Position numbers and translations under genes: made by a program. Of a stretch of 20,000 bases of DNA, positions 297 through 19,971 are shown one piece after another. The notes beneath the pieces are model-generated. The model did not search any database. It saw nothing but the letters and a program-made list of their open reading frames with translations, and was not told the origin of the DNA. Location: positions 44,757-64,756 of the forward strand of contig JYFJ02002041.1 in the NCBI GenBank assembly GCA_000934665.2, given 5' to 3'. The stretch is from Catajapyx aquilonaris (taxonomy: Eukaryota). Within the stretch, counting starts at the first letter, position 1. Each line of letters starts with the position of its first letter.

Positions 297-429
297 GGTG
301 GTTGAGCCGGAGTACGCCTCAACCGCAGGCATGTTTGGAGCCGCTTCCCTGATCACAGGAATATTCGCTGGGATCAACTTCTCCATGGCACTCTCCTGGT
401 TTGTGCAGAAAGTCAGATGGCAGTTATGA
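297..429 (+). CDS. Last coding exon of an equilibrative nucleoside transporter (SLC29/ENT family); upstream exons lie outside the window
   Basis: Acceptor ttcccttcctccgcag|G at 296/297, then frame VVEPEYASTAGMFGAASLITGIFAGINFSMALSWFVQKVRWQL* with TGA at 427-429. This matches the recalled ENT C-terminal last TM helix ('V.P.Y..TAGMF.AA.LITGIF.G'). It is absent from the ORF track. Confidence 0.8.
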
Positions 430-1785
430 AGAGGGGCTGGCCTTTTAGAGAGAATAACAAAAAAAATGCAAGAGAGAAAGAGAGAGAGCGAAAGAGAGAA
501 TCTTAGGGATAAGTGGAAAATAGTGTGGGTGAAGGTGAGACTGTAAAAGGGAGGGTGGGAGTGTGTATAGGGAACGAAGAAGCAATATGATGACGATGCA
601 TGGTGCAGTTCCTTACAGATGAAAATAGAATCAAGTTAGAATTGGGAAGTTTTTTTAATGCTTTTTTCAGGTGCGCGAATGACTCCATTTGGATTTTTTT
701 ATTATTTGGACTCCCAAAAATGCGGGTGTTGGAAGAAAAAAATTTGAACTCCCATGCCCTTTGCATAATGATTTTTTTTTTTTTGAAAACCAAATGTGAC
801 GTATTTACTTGTAGTTACCCTTCACTCCTTCTCTTACCATTTCTCCTTGTATTTAAACTTTTTAAAAGCAAGGACAGGTCTTAGGCATTTTGTCGGTTTG
901 GAGTGGGGGTTGGGTGGGGTTGACATGAGATATTTAGCTTTCGCACCGTAACGTTTTTTGAAAGTTTTGGACTTTGATAGGAACTGACAAAGTCACCCAT
1001 CATGTAAAATAACGATGCATTACCAGATCTACTGGACAAAGTTTGTAGTAAGGCAGTGATTCTCAGGGTTGTCATTTAGTAGCAGTTTATGGAGGGGGTG
1101 GGGATCAGGAGGGGAAAGGGGTTAAGTTTTGGTGACACGAGAATGGCCTACTGAGTATTTGTGTTTCTCTTTTTCCCTTGTGCATTGCGTTGTGCATTTA
1201 CTTGTAAAGGTTGGACACACGAGAAGGGATGAGGTAAGCCCTGATATCACGTACCTCGTCTCCGTGTTGGATCAACCTCAATTTTTATCTATGTGGCCTT
1301 ACACGTAGTGTATATGTTTGGGGCCATTTTTTTTGTGCAGTTATTATTATCCAGATCATGTAAAAAGATGCGCTGCCTTTTTCTAGGCCATTGTTTCTCA
1401 TTCATTTCTGTGGCCCTGCTGTAACAAATACATCTTTAAATGTAAACCTGTTCTGTTGATAACAGCAAATGTCTTGCTTGAGGTGAAATGCTGCTTATTT
1501 ATACCGCAACTTTATGGCAAAGTAATCTGAAATCAAAACCTGTCTCTCGGCGACTTGGCCTGTTTGATTGTCTTTCTGAACCAATGTTTCCCTTGCCAGT
1601 AGTGAGTCACCCCCGGACATATTGTTATTTTTGTTAACAATGCAGTGCAATAAATGAATGAGGAATTCCCAAGGGCTATCGGCCTGTCTTTGATTCTCAT
1701 CTGTTGCGGGAAGAAAGCAACAGAAAGGTGAGATTTAAAATATCCACACTGTGCATGCAAAAAAATGGTGTTTCTGAAGAGAGTT

Positions 1786-1864
1786 CCCTCCCATTGATAA
1801 GCACTCGAGCAGCAGGAGGCTTTTGCAGCACACTCCTGCGGCACTAGTACTTAGGAACAGGACA
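1786..1864 (-). ncRNA. mir-252a: pre-miR-252a hairpin (mature 5p 1833-1854; star 1795-1816)
   Basis: Reverse complement of 1833-1854 is CUAAGUACUAGUGCCGCAGGAG, identical to recalled miR-252-5p. The opposite arm CCUGCUGCUCGAGUGCUUAUCA pairs with it leaving a 2-nt 3' overhang and resembles the known miR-252-3p. A CNNC motif (CUUC) lies 16 nt past the 3p end. Confidence 0.95.
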
Positions 1865-4800
1865 GGAGTGTACAGACACACTCTACGTCACAGCCGTCTC
1901 GCCACCTGGGGATTTGAGGATTCAACAGGTGGTCCAGCAGCTGCGTCTTATGAAAAATAAAAAAACGATGGAGACGTCAAGCAATGACTGGCGAAATGGT
2001 CAATCAAGAGATTCATTTTGCATTGCTGAATGAATTTCGTGCAGTACATGACGGATGTGTTAAGAGAGGGCCCACTCATCCAATTGTGACCCCGGACCCA
2101 GAGTAGAACTGCTTTTGGTTGACTCAATTGGCCTCAATTGGAAGGGAGGACCCCCCCTCCCACAGCCACCACCTCCCTCTCTCCCTACCCTAGTGGCCTC
2201 CAGTGCTATACTCCCGCAGGATATCCCTATCAAGCGACTAATAAGGAACAGGCTGAGCCAGGAACATCATGAAAGAACTCCTGCTGATGGTCACCCAATG
2301 GATACAAGAACAAAATGCTGGACAAGACGACATGTTTTTGGTCGCAGGAATTGTTACAACATGCAACATCGTAGCCATTTGTACGAGTACGAATGAAAAG
2401 CAAGAATAAAATCTACTCTGTCTGGCTATGAATTTGTGCTCATACAACCGGCCTATTTTAGAGAGTAATGCATAGTAATGAAAGGGCCACCAGAGATGTT
2501 GATAATCACCAATACACATTATGTGGAAGTCCTGCTAGAGCCTTCAATAATGACTTCCTCATAATTAAACATCCTATGGTTGTTACTAACTTCCATTTTA
2601 GCATTCAACCGCCTCTGTTGCATGTAATTGACTCATGAGGTGATCAATTTCTGGCTTGGTTTCAAGGGTATGACTGCATGGCCGCTATTATGATAGTTGA
2701 TAGTACGAGTCAACTATCACACGCTGCATTTACACCCCCCAACGCTGATTATGGCTACTTTAAAACTAAAAAGGCTTCCATTGACGCTATTGTAATGGTT
2801 TTGCTAGTTGAATACGTAACGCATAACGTAGATACATGCATGTGGGTGACAATGCAGCACATATAGTGGAACATATGCTAACTTTGAAGCGTGCCTTGAA
2901 CTAAAGAGTAGAAGACAAACTCACTTGGTGTCCAGAATCCATCGGCTGTCACTTTGGTCTCAGAAGAGAAGTTCACACTGTAATGTTTCCCAGCTGCTGA
3001 CTCCTCAGATGCTGGTGACCCCGTCTGTCTGTGGGCCAACCCCAGAGAGGAGTCCTAATATACATGTGGTGCTGACCAATGGCAGAGGGGACCTTAATTC
3101 GTCCTCTAATCACGACCGACCCCACACTGCCACTACACTGCTGTACCACCACCACTGGATGATGATCCACCGTTTAATCTCTTTTTCCCAGGTCTCACTC
3201 TTACTCAACCGATTTAATCAACGGGAAGTAGAGGAGAGGGTGGGAGGTAGGGAGGGGGTTTAAATAGGGTTCAAAAGGCTTTTGGGCCATGGGGGGATTG
3301 CGATTAAAGGCTTCCTTCCGATTCTTTTTTTTTTTAATTTTATATTATTCATTCTGGTCGAGGGCAGAGGTACAGAGAGGGACGAGGTCACCAGAAGTGG
3401 GGGGTGCTGGTGCTGGATGATGATGAAGCACGTGAGGACCCTTTATCAATGTATGGCTAATTGGGAACAGGAGGGTATGACTTGACAAGCTTTTTGGGCA
3501 TATTTAGGTGGGTTTGCTGGACCTAGACCTTGGACAAGATGAGACTTGTACAGCTGATGACCAAAAAAGTTTGCAGTTCGGTTACAAAATGAGCTCATTT
3601 TTTTATTTTATATTAATTGTTTCTGGACTGTTATTAACAGTTATGGGCCTTCAAAATACGCCCAATACTCAGCCTGTTACATAACTACTCACATGTCAAA
3701 TTAGAATCTGTCGCGATCATTTAAAAAAAAATTAATTATGAATATGTCCTGGCTGCAAACCAAAACGACTGTATGCACATAACTGCAATAATAATTGCTA
3801 CAATATTCCGTAGCACGTAAATATTGTCATTTAATTTTTTAAATAGATTACGTGAGAGTTCCTGGCCGTTCCTGATACTGAATTATTTCCCCTGGGTTTG
3901 TTTATTGTCCCCTTCATCATTTGTATGCGCATTTTAAAAATGTAGCTTACAATTTAATCTCACCTGCTCATCCCTCCGCAGCAAGATGCACACACTTGGA
4001 GTAAATTCAAGCCAGACCATCTTCTTCCTAGAAACCAAACCTTCCTATGTACATAAAAAAGACCCCATGAAAAACGGCCATAATGACCACCTGCCCGCCA
4101 ATCTCCTCCAGATGGACCCATGTATTTTTATCTCCGGATTTCCCCAGGATATTTTCATACATATATACAAGTGTGCACATTGCAACCTGCGTATAGGTTC
4201 CCATGATGTCCAAAGCGTTTCCTCTGCAAAGACCTAGTCATATTATATGTGGAGCAGAGGGAGACAAGAGCTGGCTTTAGATGGATAGAAAGAGGCTCCG
4301 GAGGTCAAATTCATTCCCCCAATTGTGGCCTCTCTATTGAAAGGGACGGAGGGTAGGAAAAGGGAGGCCCTCAACTGGATCATATCCACAGGACCTCATA
4401 CAGATCATACCCCCCTCAAAAAAATGACCCGCAAAATTGTCTGTTAGCTGATTGCAATAATATTTCCGATGGAGGAAAAAAATTGGCAGACTATGTGCGT
4501 GGCAAATATTTTTCCACAGCTGGTGCATGTAATGTATGTATGCAGTGTGTAGCCTACACAATTGACTGCAGCTTGGCCTGAATGCGGGTTATAAGGGGAG
4601 GGGGGGAGAATGTGGTGGTGGTGGTGGGGAGGGTATGCAAATGTAAAGAGATTAGGCGTAGGTGCTGCCACGTACTCGACTTCACTCTGGAGTGTATGTT
4701 GGGAACAGAGTAATTACGCTGCCAAGTTTTATGTACGCTCAATTTTTTTATTATTATTACTTCACTCACAGTCAGTACAGATGCTGAAAATTACATTGTC

Positions 4801-5138
4801 GCACAATCCAGCTGCAAGTATAATTTTTGGGGGGGGGGAAATTATTCCTGGAATTCCTGGAATTGTTTGGCGTCTTCTGCCAAAAAAAAAAAAAATAGAT
4901 ATATGAAAGACGTCATCATATCCATATTTAATTCAATGGACACATTCCACCCGCCCACCCTTGATGTCTGTGTATATGTTGGCAGCTGGTTGTCACATAA
5001 CCTCATTGAGACTACTTACCGCATGTTTTTTTTATGAGCTGGTCATTCATAGCTGGGAAAGCCATTGTCTTTCGGTTGTTGACCCAAACGATGACCACCA
5101 CTGGTATTTTATTATGATTATTATGCAGGATGAAAATT

Positions 5139-5218
5139 GTCCCCAATGTGTTAAGCAGACGTGTGCAGGTACATCACAAACCGATTACCTGCGGCACTAC
5201 TACTTAGGACACTAAGGA
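5139..5218 (-). ncRNA. mir-252b: pre-miR-252b hairpin (mature 5p ~5186-5207; star ~5149-5170)
   Basis: Reverse complement of 5186-5207 is CUAAGUAGUAGUGCCGCAGGUA, the recalled miR-252b. Complementary arm ACCUGCACACGUCUGCUUAACA. A CNNC motif (CAUC) lies 17 nt past the 3p end. Confidence 0.93.
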
Positions 5219-7151
5219 CAAAAGTTGGTCTTTTCTGTCCAGTTGTCAACTCACCTTTTTTTTTGTGTGTGTGTGAAAATGTCCCCAGATCCGGATGTTG
5301 AGGACTCATCTTGGGTCGGAATCGTGTTGAAATGAGCTTGTTGGATGTGTGCTTGTGTGGTAGGTAGGTAACATGTTTCGTCTTGAAAGGGGTGGGAATA
5401 AGGGTAAAGGGGGGGGACTCGACCAATGAGCAACTGAAAATGAGTTTCTCCTGGCGGATCTTCATTGGCCACTTTGGCTCAAAGGCAGGTGGGCCAAACG
5501 ATGAAAGCCGTCAGACCAACCCCATCCAAATATTGGACTTTGCCCACCTCCAACTCCCAAATTTTGGGGAGGTCTGACGTAATTACAAAAGTGAGGGCAT
5601 CTAAATGGGAACAACGGGAAAAAAATATATATATTAAAACCTCAACATGTTTTTATTTAACATGAATTACATTTCGACGGTTGACATTCCCCAGTAACAG
5701 CAAAGGAGCAAAAGTCCAAAGTAATAAAGTGCACCTGCTCGTGAAAATCGGGCGTCGTAAACACCACTTATTGTTGGGGATGGCCATTTCAGGCAAATTA
5801 GCACCATTTTGTATCAACCAAAAATTTAAGGAAAAAAAAAATCGTGGACATAGCCCCTTTTGCTTTAGAGGGTAATTAAAAATGTAAAAACGACAACAAT
5901 ATAGACACCGCGGAATGTTGCGCACCTTACATTAGAACAATTACACAATTAGCTACTCTGCAAATAACGTGCGTTATGAAACAGCATTTTTTTTAGACTT
6001 CCCACGATAAGGGCGGTCTATTTTGAAAGAATATATTTTTACGGAATACATTCATTGCTCTGGACTTTCGTTTGCTTATGGACCCGCTGGGCCTCCAAAA
6101 AGCTATTGTTGTGTCGGACTCCTCCGCAATAATTGCACTCTAATTTAGCCCATAAAAATTAAACATGAACAACAGGTGGACAAAATATTGCCAAATGTGG
6201 CACAAAAAAAGGTTATTTCCTTTCTTTAAAATTTGTCACTCAAACTTTTTTTTGCAAATTGAAGATTTTCGCACTGACCAACAGACAAGCAGCAGACGGA
6301 TGATGATGATGATGTGATTACATTCATTCAACGGTTACCCATCATCATCTGTCAATTGGTGTCGGAATCTCTTGTCGAGTAGTTCCTGAGTCGGAATGTG
6401 TCCCCCATACAACTGAAGGACATCCGCTGGGGTCACTGGGAGGTCACATTTGCACCACCGAGAAAACACCGGGGTGCGAAGTACATGCCCGGCTAACGAA
6501 CACTGCATACCTGACACTCTCAATTTCTTTTTTTAAAAACTACATGTGTGTGTGGCCATTGCTAATTCCAGACTTAGATAAGGTGAGGTTGAAGGGAACA
6601 AACGAAATGTCGATGACCTATGACCCAAATTGCTGTTCTTTTTATGGCGCTTTGTTATCGGACGCAGACGACTCCGATCGGTTGTGCTGTACGAACTGTG
6701 GTGGTACGAACTCTCAAAAGATTTTTTTTTAAAATAAAAAAGTATGTGACCACAGGGTCATACACGCAATTGTAGAATATACGTAGAAAACTGCAGATGC
6801 AAATCTGTGGGAGGTCAAGGACAGGTCATGTCGCAATCGGTCCATAAGGAAATAATCGTCTACAGTCGTGAGAAAGACTATAAAAAAGGGGGCAGGTGTC
6901 ACATTTCGTACACTTTATCAGCACATCAATTTTGCACCCGCATGTGTGTCACTCTTTTATATATATATATAAAAAAAAGCCCCTTCCCCTTCCCCTTGAT
7001 CAACACAACTGGTGATGACTCGTCTCCCATTATCATCCGATTAAAAGTACAACAAGTAAATAATATCCAGGCCTTTGAAAATGTCGCGTGCTGCTTGTTA
7101 ATGTATATGAAAGAGGGGGGTGAAAATTAGAAGACAAATACTTATAATGAC

Positions 7152-7158
<7 letters not shown>

Positions 7159-7225
<67 letters not shown>
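7159..7225. repeat. (TC)n microsatellite, ~33 units
   Basis: Uninterrupted tctctc run seen directly. Confidence 0.97.
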
Positions 7226-7228
<3 letters not shown>

Positions 7229-8039
7229 ATGGCGTCATATTATGGTCAATTTACGAATAATCCTCCCCTCAATATGTACCTTTCTGAATTGGTAAAGTGC
7301 TATTGTTCCGACACCCCAACATGTCTCCCGGATGCTGTCGGCGCATTTATCTCATTTTCACGCTATATTAGTTGTGTCTCGTTGTATATATGAACATATC
7401 GTGTGTGTGTGTGTGTGGTGGGGCAGCACCCTTAAAAAAAAGTTCATATCCGAAACACCTTTTAGATATATAACAATAGCCATTTTTTGTCCATCACCTG
7501 CACAGGAAGACCCGCGGGTTCAAAATAATAGTAATAAAAAAAAATACATCACCTGCCACTTGCATATTAAAACACAAGCAGTATTTTCATCCGCAGAAAA
7601 ACAATCCTTGAAGTGCACACATTTCCGCAATTATTTTATCTCGCAACAAGTGCACAATATTTATTTCCCCCCCTGCCATCAACAACTGTTGGCAAGTGTC
7701 ACATAATGCATGCTCTCGTGCCCTTGTTAATCTCCCAATCGCAACATATGTGCAAATATAATTGGCGATGTCTGCTGGGACGGCACACTTCAAATGATCC
7801 GGATTTTTTTTCTCCTTCCAAAAGGGTGTGGGAAGGTCCTTGAATAAGTGTTGAGGCACCTTTATGGACACTTCTGATGGGGCCAAAGCATAGAGATTCC
7901 GACCCCCAAAATAAAACGTGACACAATGCGAGACACATATCGTACGTACACGTAACAACAACACGTGACACACACACTGTGAGTCACATTAAAAAGCGTC
8001 CAAATTTGGAACAGACAACTCATCGGGATGTCCCACCTT

Positions 8040-8309
8040 TTTTTTCTCTCTGTGTTTCTTACGAGGAGGAACATTGTTGAAGATTTTTCTCTCCATCAGG
8101 AGGACAACATTGTTGACTATAGATTTTTCTCTCCATCAGGAGGAGAATATATTGTTGAAGATTTTTTCTATCCAGGAAGAGGAGAATATATTGTTGAAGA
8201 TTTTTCTCTCTGTTTGTCTTACGAGGAGGAACATTGTTGAAGATTTTTTCTCTCCAGGAGGAGAGTATTGTTGAGGATTTTTCTCTCCATCAGGAGGAGA
8301 GCATTGTTG
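8040..8309. repeat. Minisatellite, ~30-45 bp units (core AGGAGGAGAATATTGTTGAAGATTTTTCTCTCCATC), ~7-8 copies
   Basis: Repeated 'ggag..attgttgaagatttttc' cores. A longer variant unit containing 'cttacgaggaggaacattgttgaaga' occurs twice (~8058 and ~8218). Confidence 0.9.
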
Positions 8310-8325
8310 GACGTATGATGATACA

Positions 8326-8405
8326 CAGAAGTTACGACATGTGAACGTTACCACGAGCATTCGCATTACAGATGCCCATTATAACGGTCACAAACCGAAA
8401 CCTCC
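8326..8405 (-). ncRNA. mir-2001: pre-miR-2001 hairpin (mature 5p 8372-8393; star ~8337-8358)
   Basis: Reverse complement of 8372-8393 is UUGUGACCGUUAUAAUGGGCAU, the recalled miR-2001. Opposite arm GCUCGUGGUAACGUUCACAUGU. The lower stem extends (GGAGGUUUCGG with GUCGUAACUUC). A CNNC motif (CAUC) lies 17 nt past the 3p end. Confidence 0.93.
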
Positions 8406-9610
8406 GAAACATATATATTTTATATTTTAAAAAAAAGGCTCTGTGAATATATGATACACACGGTGGCTTACCTTGTACAACACACACGTCGAACTGCAAC
8501 ACACATGTGTATCCATAGTGTTTCCTTTTTTTTTTCCTCTTTTAGTAAGGTCTGTTATAGAGAGAGCAAAACTGACACCTGCTGGCTTCTGGCTCAAGTT
8601 TTTTTTTTTTCACTCTCATTTCTTTTTGTAAACCAACTGTTTATGACGCGGCCTTTTAAAAAAAAGTGGGGGGAGAAAAAAAACAAAAATTTGCATTGCT
8701 AATAACCCACCGACAAATGTTTCCGAACCTATTAATTTCTGACACTTCAAATCCCTCTGTACCGGTACTGTACAGAGCAGCTGGAAATTATACCGAATGG
8801 GACACTTTTTATTTAATTAATTTCAGTTAAATTTAACTGGTTGCTGGGGTTAACAACAGGCCTTATCTATTGTTGCAATAGGCTTGAAATGACTTAATTA
8901 CTGACTCATAATTATCACCCGGATTTGTCTCCATAACAAATATAGTCATACACGGCACACACTAGACGGATCTATCACATTTCGGTGTGGCCAAGTGAAA
9001 TTCCCGGACAAACGCCCTTCCTAATATGCAAATCCACATCCTGTACGTGTGGCACGTGGGTTAAATTACCTAACACCACTTCATCTGGGGGTTTCTCATT
9101 GCATTAGAAGGGCCGGGGAGTGAAAAAAAAAAAGAGGATTGAATTAATAGTTTAAAAAATGAATCCACCTGTGCGGCTGCGAAATTTACATTGAGCAGTG
9201 TGTATGTAACGAGTAGTTAGGCGCTTACCTGGTTGCCACGGAAAACCAGAAGGCATGACTTGTTGCTGTTACTTTCGCTTGAAATATATAGGACTGTCTG
9301 TTACATGCACTGTATATACATAAGGGGAACGGGTGCAGGGGGGGGAGAATACAGAGTCTGGCACCTGCATCTGCGGCTTCCAATCATGTTTCCGTCCATT
9401 GTTTCCCATCTGACAAATCCCAGCCGCTCTTTTTTCGCCACACATCCCACACACTATTCCCCAACTAGGTTTTATTTGGGCAAAAAAAGACGGATCCATT
9501 TTGAATTTTTTTTCCTGTAGCTGCCCCGGCAATTGATAAACTTCATTTGATTGGAAGTTCCTGTTGACCTTGTTACGCATGAACGTGGGCGTTGCATTGG
9601 AATAATTGCT

Positions 9611-9616
9611 TTTATT
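9611..9616 (-). terminator. Polyadenylation signal AATAAA of VPS51
   Basis: tttatt on the + strand, ~33 nt downstream of the VPS51 stop codon. Confidence 0.6.
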
Positions 9617-9648
9617 GTGATACGTTTTAAATTAATATTACAAAATGA

Positions 9649-12600
9649 TTATCCTCTCTCTGCGATGAGTTTGACGACACTGTGGTCCATCATTACTGGG
9701 TCCAGACAGCGGTGGATCACACTGCCGACTATCTCATCCAGAAGGGTGTGCACCAAGCTGCAAGATAAAAAGATCATTAACCTCCTTTTTTTATTACGCA
9801 GAGGACCAATTAATTGTCAGACTCATAACGTACTTTTCATCCGATACGAATCGCCAAAGGTACAGCTGCAAGTAGTACGTGTCCACCTGCACCTGCTGCA
9901 ATCCAAATCGGCTGAAAGTCCGAAGTCGGACACATTCCAGGAAAGTCTGCGGAAAGAAAAAAATATTGCCTGCAATAATTGTACCATACATGTAGGGCAT
10001 ACAACAGATGCCCTTATTCATTCAGCGATATAAACATGTTTTGTTGCGAGCTGTTCAAGGCTGCACCCTGGAATTTCCCTCCCACAATGCGCGCACGCTT
10101 CCATTGTTTTGCACTTGCTCCAATTGCCACAAACCTTGAGGCTAATTTTGATGATTCCAGTGAGTATGGACACCTTGGAGAACTGGACCGATCCGAATAT
10201 CTCAATCCTTTCCGAGAAAAGCTTCTGGATGTTGGTCGCAAGGCTTGTGTCCATCTGGCTCGGGGCGTAAGCAGACCATGAGGATGGCGGGGGTTGACCC
10301 GAGGGCGGCCCCTGGTGCTGCTTGGCTGCCAGAGAAGCACCTGGCTGGTATCCTCTCCGGCTGGAATCCGAACTGCGTTCCTCCTTCCGCTGCCCCTCCT
10401 CGTAAAGGGCTCCCACTCTGACTTCCATAGCCGTCACATCCTCCACAACACGTTTCATAACAGCTCGAACAGTCCTCGGCTCTATCGTGTGCAGCCAGTC
10501 ACGCGTCTCCACAGATTTCCGTAGCATCTGAATCGCACGGAAATGTGTTAAAGACTCATAACCACAATTATGATGAAAAGTATCACCTGCGAGAGGGTCA
10601 GTCCTTGCACCCTGACGTAGTGGTCCAGCATCTGCTGAGCCACCTGCTGCATCCTTCCATTCAAGGTGTCCGTTGGTGTTAGCTGATTCCTGTCCAGAGA
10701 TCCAAACCGCTCGTCCACTGCGCCCAGCAAGAAGTGAACAGTGGACGTTGACATGTCCAAGCAAAAGCGGGACAGCAGGAGAAACAGGTCGGGCGGTAAG
10801 CTATCCCTGTCTTTAGCGCAAAGTCCGGACGAATGGGACGCCATGAACTTGATGAACTCGACGACCATTCCTTCTCTGACCGCTCCGGTGCAAAACGGCT
10901 GCCTGAATTCCGGCTTAACTGCGAAAGTCATCTCCGGCTGCAGGAAAAGCTGCATCTGGTCCAGCACAGATCGGGTCTTATCTGCGACGGAGGTCACCAG
11001 AGCAGTCAAGGAATCCCACAGCGCATTGTTGCCTTCCCCGTCCTGCGTCAGTGGTTGCGGGGAGGTCAGAGTTTGAATCAGAGACGACAGCGTGGCCTCA
11101 AAATGAGAGCACAGGACTGCGAGGTAGATAGAAGATTGGGAGCGGCTTGCACTTGACACGATAGTCAGTCCAGTCCTGCAGAATGAAATATTGTAATTAA
11201 AAGTACTGTCAACATTCATGTAACTTACCTGGCAAAGTCAGTCTGCGGCAAAAGCTTGGACATGGCTTGCAGTCTGCGGTGGAACCTGTCCAGTGCTCTG
11301 ACCAACTGAGCAGTTCCCCAAGGCTCCTTCTCAACTTTAAGACGAGACTCAACGAGATGGAAATAACGTTCCATCAGATGCATCACAAAATTTATCAACT
11401 TCTTCACCGCAACAGTCTCCAGACGCTCGCTGCAAAAGAGATATATGTCACGTGAAAACCTCATTACGAATATCATGCAGCAGATCGTACCTCTCCTCAG
11501 GCGACCTTCCACCGACCCATGCTCGGCTGATGAACACATCGTTGTAGGAAGCAACTACCAAACAAATATCGCTGAGGAATCCATTACAGCCGAGGTCAAC
11601 GAAATCCAATATGTCAGCCTTCCCAGCTTCAGCCACCTGAAGCACATCCAAATCCTGGTCCAACCTCAGCTTAGCGTGAGCCAAAAAGTCATCACAGAGC
11701 GACTCTCCAGGCTCGCCAAGTTGAAGAAGCAGGTCAACAGCTTGGGCTAGCTTTCGAGGTGAATTTGAACCCACATCATCTTCCTGACCTCTAACCTAAA
11801 TAACCCGAGATGGTCGTTAGCAGAATTCTGAAATGGTAACGACAACGAATGAGCCGTACCTGTTCCCTCAGCTTTTCTTTGAGCCGACCAACGATGGCAT
11901 CGCAATCTTCCTGTATCCCGTTAAACGAAGCCATATGCTTGTAATGAGCCAGAACCTTCTGTGCTCGAGTGTAAAACAAGACAGCCTGCGGATAGTCCCC
12001 GTCGTCCAAACAAGCGGTCAGCTTAGTCGGAAGCTCAAACAAAAACTGAAGCTTCTTCAACAGCAAATGGACTCCGGACAACTTATTAATTTGCACCCGT
12101 CGGTCTTGCAACGTCTCAGATATTTGTGCCGAGAAGGAAGTGATGGCCGACATGTTGGTTGCCAGCAGATCCATCTCCGCCTCCATCTTCTTAAAGTCGC
12201 TCTTCATCTAATGACATTAGAATGCAGAGGGAATTAATTAGTCAGCCAACTATTGTTTTGATTGTAAACGAACCTTTCGTATTGTGTCGGTTGCGGATAT
12301 GAACTTATTGTAGTTCTCATACACAAGCGTCTGCATATCCGAATCCAACGCCTGAATCTGCTTAATCACGTCACTCTCCCGATCCATCAGCTGATTCAAC
12401 GTCGACTCCTAAGTAGCAAAATTGCAATTAGAACACTTTCGACATTCCAATAGTGCAATTAGAACACGTTCGAAATTCCAATAGTGCGATTAGAACACGT
12501 TCGAAATGCCAATAGTGCGATTAGAACACTTTCGTCATTAAAATAGTGCAACTAGAACACGTTCGAAATTCCAATAGTGCAATTAGAACACTTTTTGACA

Positions 12601-12938
12601 TTCCAATAATGCAATTAGTCTAATTGCATTGTTGGAATGTCGAAAGTGTTCTAATTGAATTAGAACACGTTCGACATTCCAATAATGCAATTAGAACACG
12701 TTCGAAATGCCAATAATGCAATTGGAACACTTCAGACATTCCAACAGTGCAATTGGAACACTTCTGACATTCCAACAGTGCGGGATTAGAACACTTTTGA
12801 CATTCCAATGAAACAAACCTTGATCAACTTCTGCAGGTACATATCCGGATTAAAATGCGATCCATTAATATCATACGGATCGCCCATCGCCTCTTCGCCA
12901 GATCCGCCTCCATTCCCATTACTCTGCATCGCAAACAT
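9649..12938 (-). CDS. VPS51: Vacuolar protein sorting 51 (GARP/EARP subunit, fat-free/Ang2), 9 exons, ~770 aa
   Basis: Exons 12938-12819, 12408-12274, 12207-11860, 11795-11491, 11429-11229, 11175-10587, 10527-10135, 9946-9834, 9757-9649. All introns are GT-AG with consistent phases; total 2313 nt. Diagnostic motifs: [89 protein letters not shown]-terminal ERG*. Alternative in-frame ATG at 12929. Confidence 0.96.
12421..12809. repeat. 31-bp minisatellite (TGCAATTAGAACACGTTCGACATTCCAATAG), ~12 copies, with one inverted segment at 12620-12657, in VPS51 intron 1
   Basis: Units start at 12423, 12454, 12485, 12516, 12547, 12578 and resume at 12686, 12717, 12748, 12779. The inverted copy reads ctaattgcattgttggaatgtcgaaagtgttctaattg. 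Confidence 0.95.
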
Positions 12939-13189
12939 GGCTTCAAAAAATCCAGAACAAAAATAATTAATTCAATTCGAACAAAATTTAGAACACGTCA
13001 AATCCGCCATCTTGGAATTCAATTTAAAGACGTGGCCTACTTCCTGTGCCGAACATACGGTACTGTACATGCATGTGGCCTACTCCCCGCTCTTCGGGGT
13101 TGTCATGGTGCGTCATTCAAATCGATTGAAAGGAAAAAGGGGGTTAAAAAGAGTGGCCTTATTATAGCCTGTGGCTGTCTGAAGGTCTG
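12939..13189. promoter_or_regulatory. Bidirectional promoter region shared by VPS51 and WDR54
   Basis: Only 251 bp separate the divergent ATGs. Contains a YY1-type CCGCCATCTTG (13004-13014), an ETS-like ACTTCCTG (13039-13046) and two GTGGCCTACT copies (13032, 13075). Confidence 0.6.
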
Positions 13190-14306
13190 ATGGATTCAGC
13201 CAGCAGGTCCGTCGGGTTGCCACTGAGCGCCTCCGCACTGCAGGGCAACCTGGCCGTCATCCCAGGGAGGCAGCAGGTCGCAGTCATCCACAAGGGCAGG
13301 GTCGCACTGGCCCGACACGACAACGACGATGACTTGAGAAGGGAAGTTGCCTGGAGCGGAATGGACACAACCATTACGCAGGTCATACATTACTTTTGTT
13401 GGACCAGTACGCACCGCATTGGGTATACAAAAACCGGGGTGATTGCAGGTGGCAAGCGTTGAGTACGACGGATGCGACCTACTGGTGCTGGTGTCCACCG
13501 TCGGAGTTCAGGTGTACGATGCGGATGGGCTGTCCCTCCTGTTCTCGCACACCTTCCCGGGGAATGCGGACAGCTGGGGGGAATTCCATCGGGGTATCGC
13601 AAAGGTTGCGGAACACATCCTCTGCATCGGTACGCTCCTGCCGCTTCCTAATTGTGCTGTGTATTAATTACCGGTTTAATTACAGGGTGTCGTCGAGGCG
13701 AGGTGTTGACATTTGGCGTTTGGAAAGGAGGGATGGACATTGCGTTTGAGGCTGGGGAAAAGCTGCATGGGAGCACCATAACGGGGCTGGCCGGACGGGA
13801 GAGCAGCTTGGTGGCGGCTGACGCAAGCGGGGCACTCGGGCTGTGGACGAAAAGCGTGCATGAACCAATGAGCCGCGTTTGGTTCATCGACAACTACGGG
13901 TAAGCCCTAACAATGGAAGCGCAACAAGGAAAATTAATTTGTTATTAACTGTAGGAGCGCCTGCACCGGACTGTCGCTATGGAAGAGCCTCCTGGCCGTC
14001 AGCTTCGGTTCAGGTCATATCCGCATATTCAGGCTGCTGACCGGACATATGACTGCTGAAGTGACGGCCCATGCGGCGTGGATCACCTCGTTGGATGCGA
14101 CTGAATCCGGACAGCTGCTGTCCGTCTCGGAGGACACGTATGTTCGAGTATGGCAACTCGATGACGCTGCGGACGCCGCAACAATCGAACTAGCCACTGT
14201 GAGACAAGTTCCTGACATGCTGCTGGTCGGCGGAAAATTCCTAGGAGACAACGAGTTCGGTATAACCGGCTACGAACAGAAGCAAGTTCTGATATTTAGC
14301 CTGTGA
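13190..14306 (+). CDS. WDR54: WD repeat-containing protein 54-like, 4 exons, ~312 aa
   Basis: Exons 13190-13381, 13449-13629, 13686-13899, 13955-14306 (GT-AG, phases consistent, 939 nt). Motifs match recalled WDR54: SASALQGNLAV, LLVLVSTVGVQVYDADG, FHRGIA, ADASGALGLW, AHAAWITSLD..GQLLSVSEDTYVRVW, FGITGYE. Confidence 0.88.
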
Positions 14307-14397: not shown

Positions 14398-15656
14398 TCA
14401 CAGCTCTTCATGCTCCGGGATATCCAGTTTCGCCAGAACGTCACTAGCCAGTTTGCTGATGCTCGTCAAATAGTCATCTTCCGACTCGGCGTACGCTCGC
14501 TTTAGTGACACTAATTTGCTTCGATGCTGCTTGAACTCCGACCTGCACACACCGCTTAAAGCTGCAAGTACGTGCAGTGATTGTTCCACCTGGTCGTGCT
14601 CGGCGTCTCGGGGCAATGTGATGAGCTCGCACCATCCGCCCTCTTTCAGCCGGGCTTCCAGCTGCAGTTCACGGTACTGCCGCAGCTTCTTCGGATCCTT
14701 CGTTTCAAACAGCGGCTCGAGAACCAAGTCGGCCAGCAGCGTCGCAATCTTAAGCCGTATTTTAGTTCCATTAGCACCGAATATGGAAGAGAGCACTGCA
14801 AGTCCGCCCTGTCGTAACACGCTGCTTTGGGCGACCGGGAAGCGACGAAGCATCGCCGATAGAGCGAACACAAGGGATGACGTCGCATCGGCATCGGTTT
14901 CCTTCGACAGCGATACCAGTATGGCACGTTCAGCCCCGCTTTCAAGCGCCACAACTTGCACCTCAGGGTTGCTCTGCATTGCGGCTCCCAACAGCCGACC
15001 AGACATTGTTCTAACAGTGGCCGACGTGTGGTTCAGCGAATGGAGGGCAACAATGGAGAGTCCTCCCTGGTGGGCGAACTCAAGCGCGTCTGGATACCGG
15101 TGGCACAAATGCTGCAGGTCGCTCAGGACGGACACGATCTCATCTTCGGAAGTCGTGGCGGTGTACCGCTTAATCATGTGCGTCATGATCTTCCGGCTGG
15201 ATGGTACGCCTTTCTTTTCCTTCATGCCGTCCTCTTTTTCCTGCTGTAGCTGCTCGTATGTACGCCACTTCTCGCCGACATGCTCCTTCCGGTTGGCTTC
15301 CTCCGCAGTCGTTAACGACTTCAGCGTCTCTTCCATCTGACTTCCGCCTTCGCCCAACATGTCCTCCACCGCGACTAGATCAGTCTTCGTCTCTTCAGAC
15401 TCGTATTCCTTAGCTTCAACCTCCTTCGTATGCAGGTTCATCCGCACATGCGCACCTCGTGGTACCGCATACCCTGTAAATGACATACATAAGTAACCGG
15501 TACGTACAAAGCGCAACAAGTCATACCAGGCGGAACCTTCCTCCACTCTTTTGTGAGCCGCAACACCTTCTTCTTCTCATCCGCAGCTTCATCGTCGTCC
15601 GACCCACCGACAGACATCACCAGCAGGAAAACCAGTACGTGTCTACACAGCCTCAT
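14398..15656 (-). CDS. SIL1: Nucleotide exchange factor SIL1 (BiP co-chaperone), 2 coding exons, ~401 aa
   Basis: Exon 15656-15527 encodes signal peptide MRLCRHVLVFLLVMSVGG...TKEWRKVPPG; 53-nt intron; exon 15473-14398 encodes YAVPRGAHVRMNLHT, LGAAMQSNPEVQ, VFALSAMLRRFPVAQ and GWCE. The protein ends in the ER-retention signal HEEL. Probable 5'UTR intron at 15724-15662. Confidence 0.92.
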
Positions 15657-15889
15657 TGTCTCTAGCAACTAATTAAGATACAGTAATTAACACGCTTAAT
15701 TTTATATATAAAAAAATCTTGTACCTTGTCCTATTCAAACCCAAGGCGGCATGTGATGGTGCAATGGACACGTTTTTGCTCCCCACTGGACGGCCATTTG
15801 TTCATACAATGACGTAACATGTGCCAAAAAAAATTTGGCGTCAATATCATGCATAAATTTGGCTAAAAATAATGGACAATAAGGAAGTA

Positions 15890-16582
15890 CAATCTAAAAT
15901 TTTTAATTACAATTGCGATGTAAATTGGTCGGCCATATTGGGGACGAATGGGCGCGGCCATTTTAACGTTATATTCATAACGACTTAATATGCAAAATTT
16001 GTATTAAATTTTAATCGTTTTTAATTATTCCAACTGTAAAAAATTTGCATTCAATATATTTTCGAACCGTTTTAGCGTTTTAATTACTGTCGGCCATATT
16101 GGGTCCATGTTCGCGGCCATTTTGTGTTAACTCGTTTACATTTATCATACCAAACTGTAATTAAATATACCTTTCTTAATTATAATTATGACGAAAAAAT
16201 TACGACCGGTCCATTTTGGAACAGTTTTAATCATGACGCTTCCTGTCGGCCATATTGGGGCCAATGTGGGCGGCCATATTGTGTCCAGGCACGTTAAATC
16301 CACCATGCTTAAATGTTCCAAATTGTGATTAAATTTACCGTTGTTAATTATGATTGCACCATTAAAATTACGCCGGGTCCATTTTAGAACAGTTTTAATG
16401 ACGACAGATGACGACGCTTCTAGTCGGCCATGTTGGTTCGCAGCCATTTTGTGTCCATACACGTTAAATACATCGTTGCTTAAATGTTCCAAATTGTGAT
16501 TAAATTTACCGTTCTTAATTATGACGACAGTGCATAAATTATGCGAGGTCCATTTCGGAACAGTTTTAATGGCGACGCTTCC
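15890..16582. repeat. Degenerate tandem repeat, 156-178 bp unit, ~4 copies, each with a pair of GCCATNTT motifs
   Basis: GTCGGCCATRTTGG recurs at 15928, 16089, 16245 and 16423. The block TGCTTAAATGTTCCAAATTGTGATTAAATTTACCGTT is identical at 16306 and 16477. Confidence 0.85.
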
Positions 16583-16586
16583 GAAC

Positions 16587-16613
16587 AGCCAATCGGAGCG
16601 AGGGGCGCGAAAA
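16587..16613 (+). promoter_or_regulatory. CCAAT box plus E2F-type site upstream of the nucleoplasmin-like gene
   Basis: AGCCAATC at 16587-16594 and GGCGCGAAAA (TTTTCGCGCC on the minus strand) at 16604-16613. Confidence 0.5.
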
Positions 16614-17013
16614 GTGCGCATTTGCCAGTCGGCAATGCAAATCGCTGCTACCTGTAGCCGTGACTGCGGAATAGCCGTTGCCCTCATCCATTTCCTTATA
16701 GCGAGAAGCTGCTAGTTCTGCAAGCTGCTATGTGCTGTTGTGGACATTAGCTATGCGATATACGGAGGGGCAATGATCTGGCAACCCCCTCCCCTTCCCC
16801 CTCCCCTCCATACCCTCTCTTGCCCATTCCCTCTACCCTCGCTGCCGCCTCGTTCTTTCTTTTTCCCTCCCGCTTCCTTCCCTCTCCGACCACACTAGAC
16901 GCCGGGTGTAGGACAGAGAAGCGGTGCGTCGCTGTGCCCTGAGAGAGAATCTGCCCGCATCCGGACCTTCCAACAGCCATCTCCGACCCGTTTAGACGTA
17001 CCAAGCAAAAGGA

Positions 17014-19971
17014 ATGGAGGAGGAACAGTTTTGGGGTAAGCCAACGGGTTGTTTGTGGAACGCCGGGGGGGATATCAAATAAGAAGAGGGGCAGGGACCA
17101 TCGGCCGGCATCTCTTTATAGAACGTATCAGGAAGGGACGCTGCTAGCCCCCCCGTGTGTACAACAGGGGGGATGGGCCGGTACCGGGGCAGAATGGGGC
17201 CTAAGCCGGCCGGTCTTTTTTCTTTTTCTTTTTTTATTAAATGGCGGGCTTAGCCTAAGGGGGGGCGAGGGTAGGACAAAGGGACCGCACTACGACCGGG
17301 GGGGAAAAACATGGCTGTGCATAGTACCGTGTCTGTCGGGGCGTCCTCAGGAAGGTACGGGTGACGGTACGGGTGACAGGTACCGTTCCAATGTAAGGGG
17401 GGGGGAGGGGGGAGGGAGGGATTCGGAATAGAGCAGGGGTGCCAACATGGAGATTAGACGCACCTAAAAAAAGGGGGGTTGGTACCGCGGAAGGGGATGC
17501 ATGCTGCATGTTGGGGGGGGGAAAAGGAGGGAGATAAAAATGCTGTAGGGTGTGGCTTTACTGGATTAATTAATTACAAATTAATAAGCATGGGTTGGTT
17601 TGGCTTAAAATAATTTTTTTGAGAAGTGCGACCATGTGGGTCCATTTTTTGCATATTAGGTAGTTATTACATCACTGGGTTGGTTCACAGTAGCCAAGCC
17701 TACTGAAGACATGTGGTTGCTTCACAGACATGCACGGTATGATCTGTTGCATTGATTTGTGCAATAATGACGATAATAATTTTTATCAATTTTATGGCTG
17801 ATTTGTGTGCAATTTTTGTTTCCCGCCCCCATATGCAATGATGGGCTTGAAAGTGGCACGTTTTTGATCCGATAGTCATTGCTGCAATAATTATGTAATA
17901 AACAATGTGCACTGGGGGCCCAGAGGCATATTTTTCAATGGGAAATAATTCCCACATGCTCATACCGGAGTCAAAAAATGAGGGCCATTGCTGTAGATAA
18001 GCCATCAAGGTTCTTTTCTCCCTTGTTGCTGGCATATTAAATACGGTAAAATTGCAAGGTGAAACAACTGGAAAATTAGGAAATTTGTGTACTGCTTAAC
18101 ACTCGTCGTTGAAGCAAAAATATGATTATGTAAGCTCTGCACTTTTTGTTTGTGAAATGCTTCGGGGCCTTGACCTACAGTACATTAACATGCCATACAG
18201 TAACTAGTGCTTTGTCTAGGATTTGATTGCTTTGTGTACTGCTGGTTTGTTGTTGAGGTATGGAGTATATTTAGCTTGAGTGTATGACATCTCATGTACA
18301 TTCCTGACTACTGCTTTTGATAGGGAGTTTTATCACAATGGATGTTTACGCAGCTCTTGATTACTTAAGGGGCAATGTCATTTTGACACATACTATTATA
18401 CAATGTTAAATAAGCAAAGTTTGTCAGGCCTGATGACATTTACGTTGCTAGCACATTATTTGTAACTACTTAATCTGATAGCGTTAATAAAAATAATGTG
18501 GTTTCACGGACACAACAATGTTACTGTTGGTGGGTGGTACCTTCACATCCTGTATGGCAGATGTTTGTCACCAGTGCTGTTTTTGTACTTTGGAAGTAAT
18601 AAACTGTGCATGGAAACATGGCTATTCCTGGTGGGCGGATAAAAGAGAATGCTGCCACCACTGATATGTTGATCATGACCTTGCTTGAAGTTGATCAACA
18701 AATTGTATCCATCATACTACTGCAGAAACTAACTGTCAATTTATCCACCAGGATTCTCGCTTAGCGCAGACAAGAAGGAGTGCGAATGGAACCCAGATAT
18801 GCCAAAGAAGCAGGACCGGCCAGCCATGAAGGGGATGATCAGTCTTCTCCTCAAGCAGGTAATGCACATTTTGCGGTCTTCATCAATCTACATTCGATTG
18901 TAATTGCTACGTACAGTGTCAGCACTACCAATATTAATGAAAGTGTTTTTTTTTTGGATGTGTGGCTCATGCAATTTGCTATTAATTTCCAGGCCGTGTT
19001 GGGCAAGGAGGCGAAGGAAGGCGAGGTGAACATAGTCGAGGTGGAGGCGGTTAGCACGACTGGCGACACCATCAAGCTTCCGGTTCTGTACCTGAAGGGA
19101 GGCTCCCTCCACCAGCAAATGATGAACGTTACCCTGCCCGAGCCCCCAGCCAAGATCATGCTCACGTCGGGCAGTGGCCCCATCCATCTTACCGGAGTTG
19201 AAAAGATTGGTGCGTACCGAGGCGTCTTTGCATCTTAACGAAAGGGACAAAATTGGGTCATAATGGATTGGAAATATTGTACTGTTTTGGGTGTAGTCTG
19301 TACGTCAGTAATAAATTAAGGCAAATTGACGGAAATTCATGCTGACGGATTTGGATAATGCAACAAATCTAGATTGTTGGAAGAATTAGTGGCCTAATGC
19401 AGATGGGAAAGACGTTCAGAAATGCGACATGATTTTAATTATGTGTTGGCTAATTGCTGCTTGCTAATTACAGACTTCAAGTACGCGGGTGGCGACATTG
19501 AAGATGATGAAGATATGGATGACGAAGAGCTCGAGGAGGAAGATATGGACGATGAGCTCGACGATAAGGTAGGGAAGATGAATAACGCATCCTAAACGTA
19601 CACCCCATCATCCCCATTGCCAAATTAATAATTTGCACCCTCCAAAAAAAAAATTATATAACCCCCCAGAAAAAACCAGTCGCACACTCTTTTCTCCCAT
19701 TCAAAATTGTAGCATTAGGTTAACCTAAACCGCAACCTGTGACTAATGTTTTCTATGTAAAACACGAGAAAAAAAAAACTACATACGTACATAAGCCTGT
19801 AGCTCACGTTTGTGAAGAAAAGAGTGGGACAATTTTGACCAAAATGGACGCATACAAAACCACCCTCCCAACTTTTTGCAGATTGACTTGAAAAAGAGAA
19901 AGGCAGGCACAGGCAAAGGAAACCTAGGGAAACCGAAAAAGCCTAGAATGGATTTAGACGATGATGATGAG
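17014..19971 (+). CDS. Nucleoplasmin-like histone chaperone (Nlp/nucleophosmin family), first 5 coding exons; 3' end lies beyond the window
   Basis: Exons 17014-17035 (MEEEQFW), 18752-18858 (GFSLSADKKECEWNP..SLLLKQ), 18993-19209 (AVLGKEAKEGEVNIVEV..GSGPIHLTG), 19474-19568 (acidic tract EDDEDMDDEELEEEDMDDELDD), 19882-19971 (KKRKAGTGKGNLGKPKKPR bipartite NLS, DDDDE). Phases are consistent and a donor gtaagt follows at 19972. Confidence 0.9.

What the first reader, a model, noticed from the sequence alone, without database searches (positions are those of the whole stretch)
1786..8405. Hidden miR-2001 / miR-252b / miR-252a microRNA cluster in the ORF-free interval
Seen in sequence: three co-oriented minus-strand hairpins spaced ~3.2-3.4 kb apart, each with a duplex leaving a 2-nt 3' overhang and a CNNC motif at +16/17. 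Established knowledge (recalled): the mature arms match miR-2001, miR-252b and miR-252a, an ancient bilaterian cluster. miR-2001 is absent from Drosophila and vertebrates but kept in several other invertebrate lineages. Inference: this is one polycistronic pri-miRNA explaining the 9 kb gap between convergent ENT and VPS51 genes, it would be missed by protein-only annotation, and it points to a non-insect host.
Basis: partly seen in the sequence, partly recalled or inferred. Interest (0 to 1): 0.8.

Follow-up and report, generated by a model that had tools for sequence, protein, structure and literature searches.

The report
Conserved miR-2001/miR-252 microRNA gene cluster
Three small regulatory RNA genes (miR-2001, miR-252b, miR-252a) sit in their usual ancient order between two protein genes of a wingless arthropod, a real but ordinary copy of a gene cluster already described in other animals.

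Summary
Three minus-strand hairpins start at 8393, 5207 and 1854. Two exceed the Rfam mir-252 cut-off (73.4 and 62.5 bits against 45). The third hits mir-2001 at E 1.7e-4, below that cut-off (34 against 74). They are the top 3 of 63 hairpin loci in the 9.2 kb gap, with 13-14 nt lower stems and CNNC at +17/+17/+16. Mature arms match published miR-252a (22/22, cockroach), miR-252b (22/22, sea urchin) and miR-2001 (20/22). The order equals the published Blattella Mir-252 cluster, so this is a new instance of a known cluster. Corrections: miR-2001 is not absent from insects or Drosophila. Two surveys file miR-274 under MIR-2001, and one lists the cluster across insects, so it cannot show a non-insect host. 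The host still looks like a non-pterygote pancrustacean on other evidence (single-exon ENT tree, mir-153 present). One polycistronic transcript is likely but not shown; no RNA run was listed, so expression and ends are untested. The scan's notes showed no earlier report of this cluster.

The parts
8337..8393 (-). mir-2001 (MIR-2001/miR-274 family) pre-miRNA; mature 5p arm 8393-8372, seed UGUGACC; extended stem 8406-8326
   Evidence: Rfam RF03374 34 bits, E 1.7e-4; RF00822 mir-274 31.1 bits, E 0.0029. 20/22 to spu-miR-2001 in the same register (compared by eye). Fold z -7.2. Single copy by DNA search of the genome.
5149..5207 (-). mir-252b pre-miRNA; mature 5p arm 5207-5186, seed UAAGUAG; extended stem 5221-5137
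   Evidence: Rfam RF00838 62.5 bits. 22/22 to spu-miR-252b and 16/22 to Blattella Mir-252b, both by eye. Fold z -6.6.
1795..1854 (-). mir-252a pre-miRNA; mature 5p arm 1854-1833, seed UAAGUAC; star 1816-1795; extended stem 1867-1785
   Evidence: Rfam RF00838 73.4 bits. Mature 22/22 and star 21/22 to Blattella Mir-252a (by eye). Fold z -4.4.
8317..8320 (-). CNNC motif at +17 of mir-2001
5129..5132 (-). CNNC motif at +17 of mir-252b
1776..1779 (-). CNNC motif at +16 of mir-252a
298..429 (+). last coding exon of the equilibrative nucleoside transporter (ENT); left flank; the rest of the gene lies left of the window
   Evidence: tblastn 61-65% identity to Orchesella and Ischnura ENT C-termini. The previous exon hits PF01733.
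9649..12890 (-). VPS51 gene (about 9 coding exons), right flank, same strand as the microRNAs, stop at 9651-9649
   Evidence: 107 homologues, named ones mostly labelled VPS51; exon map by tblastn; stop codon
7912..7992 (-). unassigned GU-rich hairpin inside the cluster; a possible fourth member, probably a chance fold
   Evidence: z -3.45, 0 of 200 shuffles; ranked 7 of 63; single copy; no Rfam match listed at E up to 10

Best explanation
This is the host's single orthologous copy of the ancient Mir-252 cluster, 5'-mir-2001, mir-252b, mir-252a-3', on the minus strand between convergent VPS51 and ENT genes. Shown here: family identity, hairpin structure, Microprocessor-type geometry and gene order. 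Inferred from established animal miRNA biology: a Pol II primary transcript (most likely one RNA of at least 6.6 kb, starting between the VPS51 3' end and 8406) is cropped by Drosha/Pasha about 13 nt above each basal junction, helped by CNNC. Dicer-1 then releases about 22-nt duplexes and the 5p arms load into Ago1. These repress mRNAs through three seeds: UGUGACC, UAAGUAG and UAAGUAC. The two mir-252 copies come from an ancient tandem duplication and differ at seed position 8, so their target sets overlap only in part. Confidence is about 0.97 that these are the three genes and about 0.75 that they share one transcript.
For: Rfam hits. Folds and ranks. Mature arms 22/22, 22/22 and 20/22 to published sequences. 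Same order and strand as Blattella scaffold 1231. The cluster is tabulated for seven insects, with a span given for five (6.1-51.6 kb). It is noted for Lottia and Capitella. mir-252a/b lie about 2.9 kb apart in protostomes and deuterostomes with a 1-nt seed difference (PMC4238352), against 3.35 kb here. The genome-wide mir-252 search returned only these two loci among 58 scored candidates. All three microRNAs are listed as expressed in shrimp; 2001 and 252 are expressed in tick.
Against: There are no expression data, so 5' ends, arm choice and co-transcription are unmeasured. mir-2001 is far below the Rfam gathering score and was not returned at E <= 0.001 by the genome-wide family search. Six AATAAA hexamers lie on the minus strand between the first and last hairpin (7665, 5657, 5113, 4752, 3906, 3607), and no promoter could be pinned down. 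Blattella Mir-2001 is annotated with a 5' end one base further upstream, so 8394 is an alternative start.
Confidence: 0.9

Rival explanations
1. The three microRNA genes are real but are transcribed separately, or mir-2001 is separate from the mir-252 pair; linkage is inherited synteny only.
For: The hairpins are over 3 kb apart. Six AATAAA hexamers lie between them. The cluster spans 51.6 kb in Blattella and is broken up in Drosophila.
Against: Order and orientation are the same as in cockroach, and 252a/b linkage is kept across protostomes and deuterostomes. No protein gene lies between them. AATAAA hexamers are common in this AT-rich DNA: 10 on the minus strand and 7 on the plus strand of the gap.
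Confidence: 0.17
2. The cluster has no promoter of its own and is made by read-through from the co-oriented VPS51 gene.
For: It is on the same strand, and mir-2001 starts about 1.25 kb after the VPS51 stop.
Against: AATAAA at 9616 and 9476 lie right after the VPS51 stop. VPS51 is a housekeeping trafficking gene (established knowledge), whereas these microRNAs vary by stage and sex in tick.
Confidence: 0.06
3. The hairpin at 8393 is a chance fold or a decayed copy, and only the mir-252 pair is functional.
For: 34 bits against a gathering score of 74; missed by the genome-wide family search.
Against: 20 of 22 mature bases equal the sea-urchin miR-2001. It sits at the expected first position of the cluster. 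z is -7.2, with a 13-nt lower stem and CNNC at +17. Three related models (mir-2001, mir-274, mir-360) all hit it.
Confidence: 0.02

Closest known systems
Mir-252 cluster of Blattella germanica and other insects (Ylla et al. 2016, PMC5121899, Tables S1 and S7)
   Same: Same three genes, same order (2001, 252b, 252a), one strand; miR-252a mature 22/22 and star 21/22.
   Different: 6.6 kb here against 51.6 kb in Blattella (similar to Apis 6.1 kb). miR-252b here has the sea-urchin-type sequence and matches Blattella 252b at only 16/22.
Ancient mir-252a/b tandem pair (Mohammed et al. 2014, PMC4238352) and the mir-252/252/2001 cluster of Lottia and Capitella (Marco et al. 2013, PMC3763532)
   Same: Tandem a/b pair about 3 kb apart with a 1-nt seed difference; linked mir-2001.
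   Different: Nothing substantive. The PMC4238352 passage gives the a and b seed labels the other way round from the sequences; I follow the sequences.
Drosophila mir-252, mir-1002/968 and mir-274
   Same: Same two families by PMC8126727 Table S2 and PMC4238352; the Rfam mir-274 model hits the first hairpin.
   Different: Dispersed in Drosophila and diverged in sequence; clustered and near-ancestral here.

Membership tests
MIR-252 (Rfam RF00838) | Covariance-model score at or above the gathering score (45 bits) | tested here: met
   73.4 and 62.5 bits
MIR-252 (Rfam RF00838) | Mature 5p arm with UAAGUA(C/G) seed matching known members | tested here: met
   22/22 to Blattella Mir-252a; 22/22 to spu-miR-252b
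MIR-2001 (Rfam RF03374) | Covariance-model score at or above the gathering score (74 bits) | tested here: not met
   34 bits, E 1.7e-4. So it is not a member by Rfam's score cut-off. The family as defined in miRNA papers rests on seed and mature sequence (next row), and the filing here rests on that definition.
MIR-2001 (seed/mature definition, includes miR-274) | 5p mature arm with UGUGACC core and conserved mature sequence | tested here: met
   20/22 to spu-miR-2001 in the same register; 20/22 to Blattella Mir-2001 with a one-base offset
Mir-252 cluster | One MIR-2001 and two MIR-252 genes on one strand in the order 2001, 252b, 252a | tested here: met
Canonical animal microRNA | Stable unbranched hairpin with a lower stem of about 13 nt and processing motifs | tested here: met
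   z -4.4 to -7.2; lower stem starts at -13, -14 and -13; CNNC at +17, +17 and +16; apical UGU at pre-miRNA position 24 and 23 in 2001 and 252a; UG at -13 only in 252b
Canonical animal microRNA | Expression of both arms with homogeneous 5' ends and 2-nt 3' overhangs in reads | not testable with these tools
   No run was available to lay on the locus; the overhang is inferred from the fold only
Polycistronic pri-miRNA | One transcript covering all hairpins | not testable with these tools
   Needs long reads or RT-PCR; only co-orientation and spacing are shown

The most novel reading that the evidence does not exclude
The cluster has taken up a fourth, lineage-specific microRNA (the single-copy hairpin at 7912-7992, about 350 nt downstream of mir-2001). 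The host, a wingless pancrustacean possibly near the hexapod base, keeps the ancestral miR-252b sequence, which would place the divergence of insect miR-252b after this lineage split.
Probability: 0.08. Interest if true: 0.3.

Novelty: new member of a known kind. Interest (0 to 1): 0.15.

Why it matters
It is a correct annotation of three conserved regulatory genes that a protein-only annotation would miss. It adds one data point on the Mir-252 cluster in a non-pterygote arthropod, with sequences close to the sea-urchin forms. It would not surprise a microRNA specialist, because the cluster, its order and its spacing are in print. The useful correction is that miR-2001 is a poor marker of non-insect origin, since miR-274 is filed in the same family.

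Tried and rejected
1) RNA runs: none was listed for 1700-9700. That is no evidence either way, and no reads were laid.
2) Model of one spliced host intron holding all three hairpins (donor 8471, acceptor near 1701). With matrices trained on 12 donors and 12 acceptors of VPS51 and ENT, donor 8471 ranked 4 of 550, the 1701 acceptor was not in the top 12 of 523, and the plus strand gave equally high scores. Not supported.
3) A second MIR-2001/274 paralogue. The best genome-wide mir-274 hit (L010, 45.1 bits) is a long near-perfect palindrome (-88.8 kcal/mol) whose motif recurs several times within 3 kb. I read it as a repeat element, not a microRNA.
4) More cluster members to the left: no microRNA family in 20 kb of left flank at E <= 0.05. 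The window's right end is the contig end.
5) Host placement by VPS51 and SIL1 searches was uninformative. Searches for mir-932 and mir-927 found nothing, but the controls did not ring, so they are not used as evidence.
6) Seed matches in the flanking DNA were few and not informative.
7) Paper searches for mir-274 with mir-2001 and mir-274 with MirGeneDB returned 0 papers; the link was found only in supplements. MirGeneDB and miRBase could not be queried directly.
8) PMC11213123 showed no occurrence of either term. Supplements of PMC3411463 could not be read, and 37 of 39 files of PMC7523956 were not searched. They may hold crustacean and millipede sequences or cluster maps.

Full report
OBSERVATION. 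The minus strand carries three hairpins whose 5p arms start at 8393, 5207 and 1854, spaced 3186 and 3353 nt and spanning 6599 nt. Rfam at curated thresholds finds two features in the whole window, both mir-252: 1862-1789 (73.4 bits) and 5215-5143 (62.5 bits); the cut-off is 45. At relaxed thresholds the third hairpin matches mir-2001 (34 bits, E 1.7e-4, cut-off 74), mir-274 (31.1 bits, E 0.0029) and mir-360 (23.5 bits, E 0.29). The folds have z -7.2, -6.6 and -4.4, with 0 of 200 shuffles as stable in each case. The minus strand folds better than the plus strand for all three. As a control I folded 3040 90-nt windows on both strands of 431-9640. Of these, 125 formed a single hairpin of at least 27 pairs, in 63 loci, and the three candidates ranked first, second and third by z. 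The fourth-ranked (6683-6772, z -5.1) has large internal loops and A/U runs and does not look like a microRNA.

PROCESSING SIGNALS. The 2-nt-overhang rule gives precursors of 57, 59 and 60 nt ending at 8337, 5149 and 1795. CNNC then starts at +17, +17 and +16, against a background of 0.11 per site, about 0.0014 for three. An apical UGU lies at position 24 (2001) and 23 (252a); a basal UG near the expected place is seen only for 252b (-13). The overhang itself is inferred, not measured. However, the read-based Blattella star arms of 252a and 2001 end at the equivalent bases (by eye). That the 13-nt stem, UGU and CNNC are Microprocessor signals is established knowledge, recalled.

IDENTITY. All comparisons here are by eye with sequences printed from papers. 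The 1854 arm equals Blattella Mir-252a at 22/22 and its star at 21/22. The 5207 arm equals sea-urchin miR-252b at 22/22 but Blattella Mir-252b at only 16/22. The 8393 arm equals sea-urchin miR-2001 at 20/22 in the same register and Blattella Mir-2001 at 20/22 with a one-base offset, so 8394 remains an alternative 5' end. A genome-wide mir-252 search returned only these two loci (58 candidates scored). DNA searches found one copy each of the 252b and 2001 hairpins. The genome-wide mir-2001 model search returned nothing at E <= 0.001, not even this locus, which shows how weakly that model fits it.

SURROUNDINGS. The last ENT exon is at about 298-429 on the plus strand, with earlier exons in the left flank. 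VPS51 runs on the minus strand from about 12890 to a stop at 9651-9649. The genes are convergent and the gap is about 9.2 kb. None of the 14 stop-to-stop frames of at least 100 aa lying wholly in the gap hits Pfam. No further microRNA family was found in 20 kb to the left.

WHAT IS KNOWN. Ylla et al. 2016 (PMC5121899; passages, rows of five supplements, Table S7 whole) list a 'Mir-252' cluster of two MIR-252 and one MIR-2001. Spans are 51.6 kb in Blattella, 6.7 kb in aphid (MIR-2001 outside the cluster), 6.1 kb in Apis, 8 kb in Tribolium (no MIR-2001) and 25.6 kb in Bombyx (one MIR-252); it is dispersed in Drosophila. The Blattella coordinates give the order 2001, 252b, 252a on one strand, as here. 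Marco et al. (PMC3763532; one table passage) note the duplication plus mir-2001 in Lottia and Capitella. Mohammed et al. (PMC4238352; passages) describe mir-252a/b as an ancient local duplication, about 2.9 kb apart, with a 1-nt seed difference. The cluster is therefore in print. I did not find, and did not specifically search for, an annotation of this particular genome.

THE HOST ARGUMENT. Two family-level surveys contradict it. bmo-mir-274 is filed as MIR-2001 and Drosophila is counted as having one MIR-2001. PMC8126727 (passages, supplement part 4 of 5 and searches) merges miR-274 and miR-6057 into MIR-2001 and lists losses only in Thysanoptera, Hemiptera, Coleopterodea, some flies and Orussidae. 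The two surveys disagree on the aphid. PMC6007596 (one passage) counts five losses across animals. So miR-2001 does not mark a non-insect.

Independent evidence still favours one. A tree of one ENT exon (170 aa) with 52 of the 120 listed homologues (43 named, 9 unnamed top hits) was built. It puts the query among pancrustaceans (99/97), outside the insect clade (100/98), the malacostracan clade (100/98) and the three sampled springtails (99/94), and weakly sister to springtails (93/72, not significant). The tree is midpoint-rooted and has no wingless insect (silverfish, bristletail), dipluran, proturan or myriapod. The genome carries mir-153 above cut-off (64.6 bits), a family listed as lost in winged insects, and a mir-282 just under cut-off (54.4 against 55). 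My reading is a non-pterygote pancrustacean, perhaps a basal hexapod; a wingless insect is not excluded.

MECHANISM. Shown: three conserved precursors with canonical geometry in conserved order. Inferred: Pol II transcription of the minus strand, Drosha/Pasha cropping, Dicer-1 cleavage, Ago1 loading of the 5p arms, and seed-guided repression. 252a and 252b differ at position 8. In Drosophila miR-252 is ecdysone-induced and targets mbt, Abi and Rab6 (PMC11277110, review passages). miR-274 is reported to act from glia on Sprouty (10.1101/547554, search listing and start of abstract only). Targets in this host were not tested. One primary transcript is the likeliest arrangement (about 0.75). Separate units (0.17) and VPS51 read-through (0.06) remain open. 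AATAAA hexamers sit just after the VPS51 stop (9616, 9476), and six more lie between the hairpins. A single-intron host model was not supported. No RNA data could be examined.

VERDICT. A real and well-spotted feature, correctly named, but an ordinary orthologue of a published cluster: new member of a known kind, interest 0.15. The scan's own notes showed nothing near this place, no look-alike stretch, and none of the 8 shown of 19 word matches concerned this cluster.

Noticed in passing
window 8073-8309: Minisatellite of about six 36-39 nt units starting just downstream of mir-2001.
   Followed up: no
window 12423-12809: 31-nt tandem repeat (about 12 units) filling the first VPS51 intron.
   Followed up: no
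window 13100-14306 (+), 14398-15650 (-), 18765-19550 (+): Compact neighbours: WDR54, a SIL1-like nucleotide exchange factor and a nucleoplasmin-like gene. VPS51 and WDR54 appear head-to-head within a few hundred bases.
   Followed up: partly
window 15800-16620: Degenerate repeated motifs upstream of the SIL1-like gene, possibly a mobile-element remnant; its 188-aa frame has no Pfam hit.
   Followed up: partly
window 2369-2458 and 6683-6772: Two further stable hairpins in the gap (z about -4 and -5) with large internal loops, no Rfam match.
   Followed up: partly
window 703 (-) and 1649, 1956 (+): Poly(A) hexamers suggest that the ENT 3' UTR and the microRNA transcript's 3' end could overlap antisense; use of 1956 would run ENT across mir-252a. 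Speculative.
   Followed up: no
L010 540-1615 and 2750-3060: Family of long palindromic repeats between coding-like stretches; gives spurious Rfam microRNA hits.
   Followed up: partly
L007 1344-1588: mir-282-like hairpin with a tRNA about 85 nt downstream on the same strand.
   Followed up: no
L012 (G000:C16:24168-24239): mir-153 above the Rfam cut-off.
   Followed up: partly
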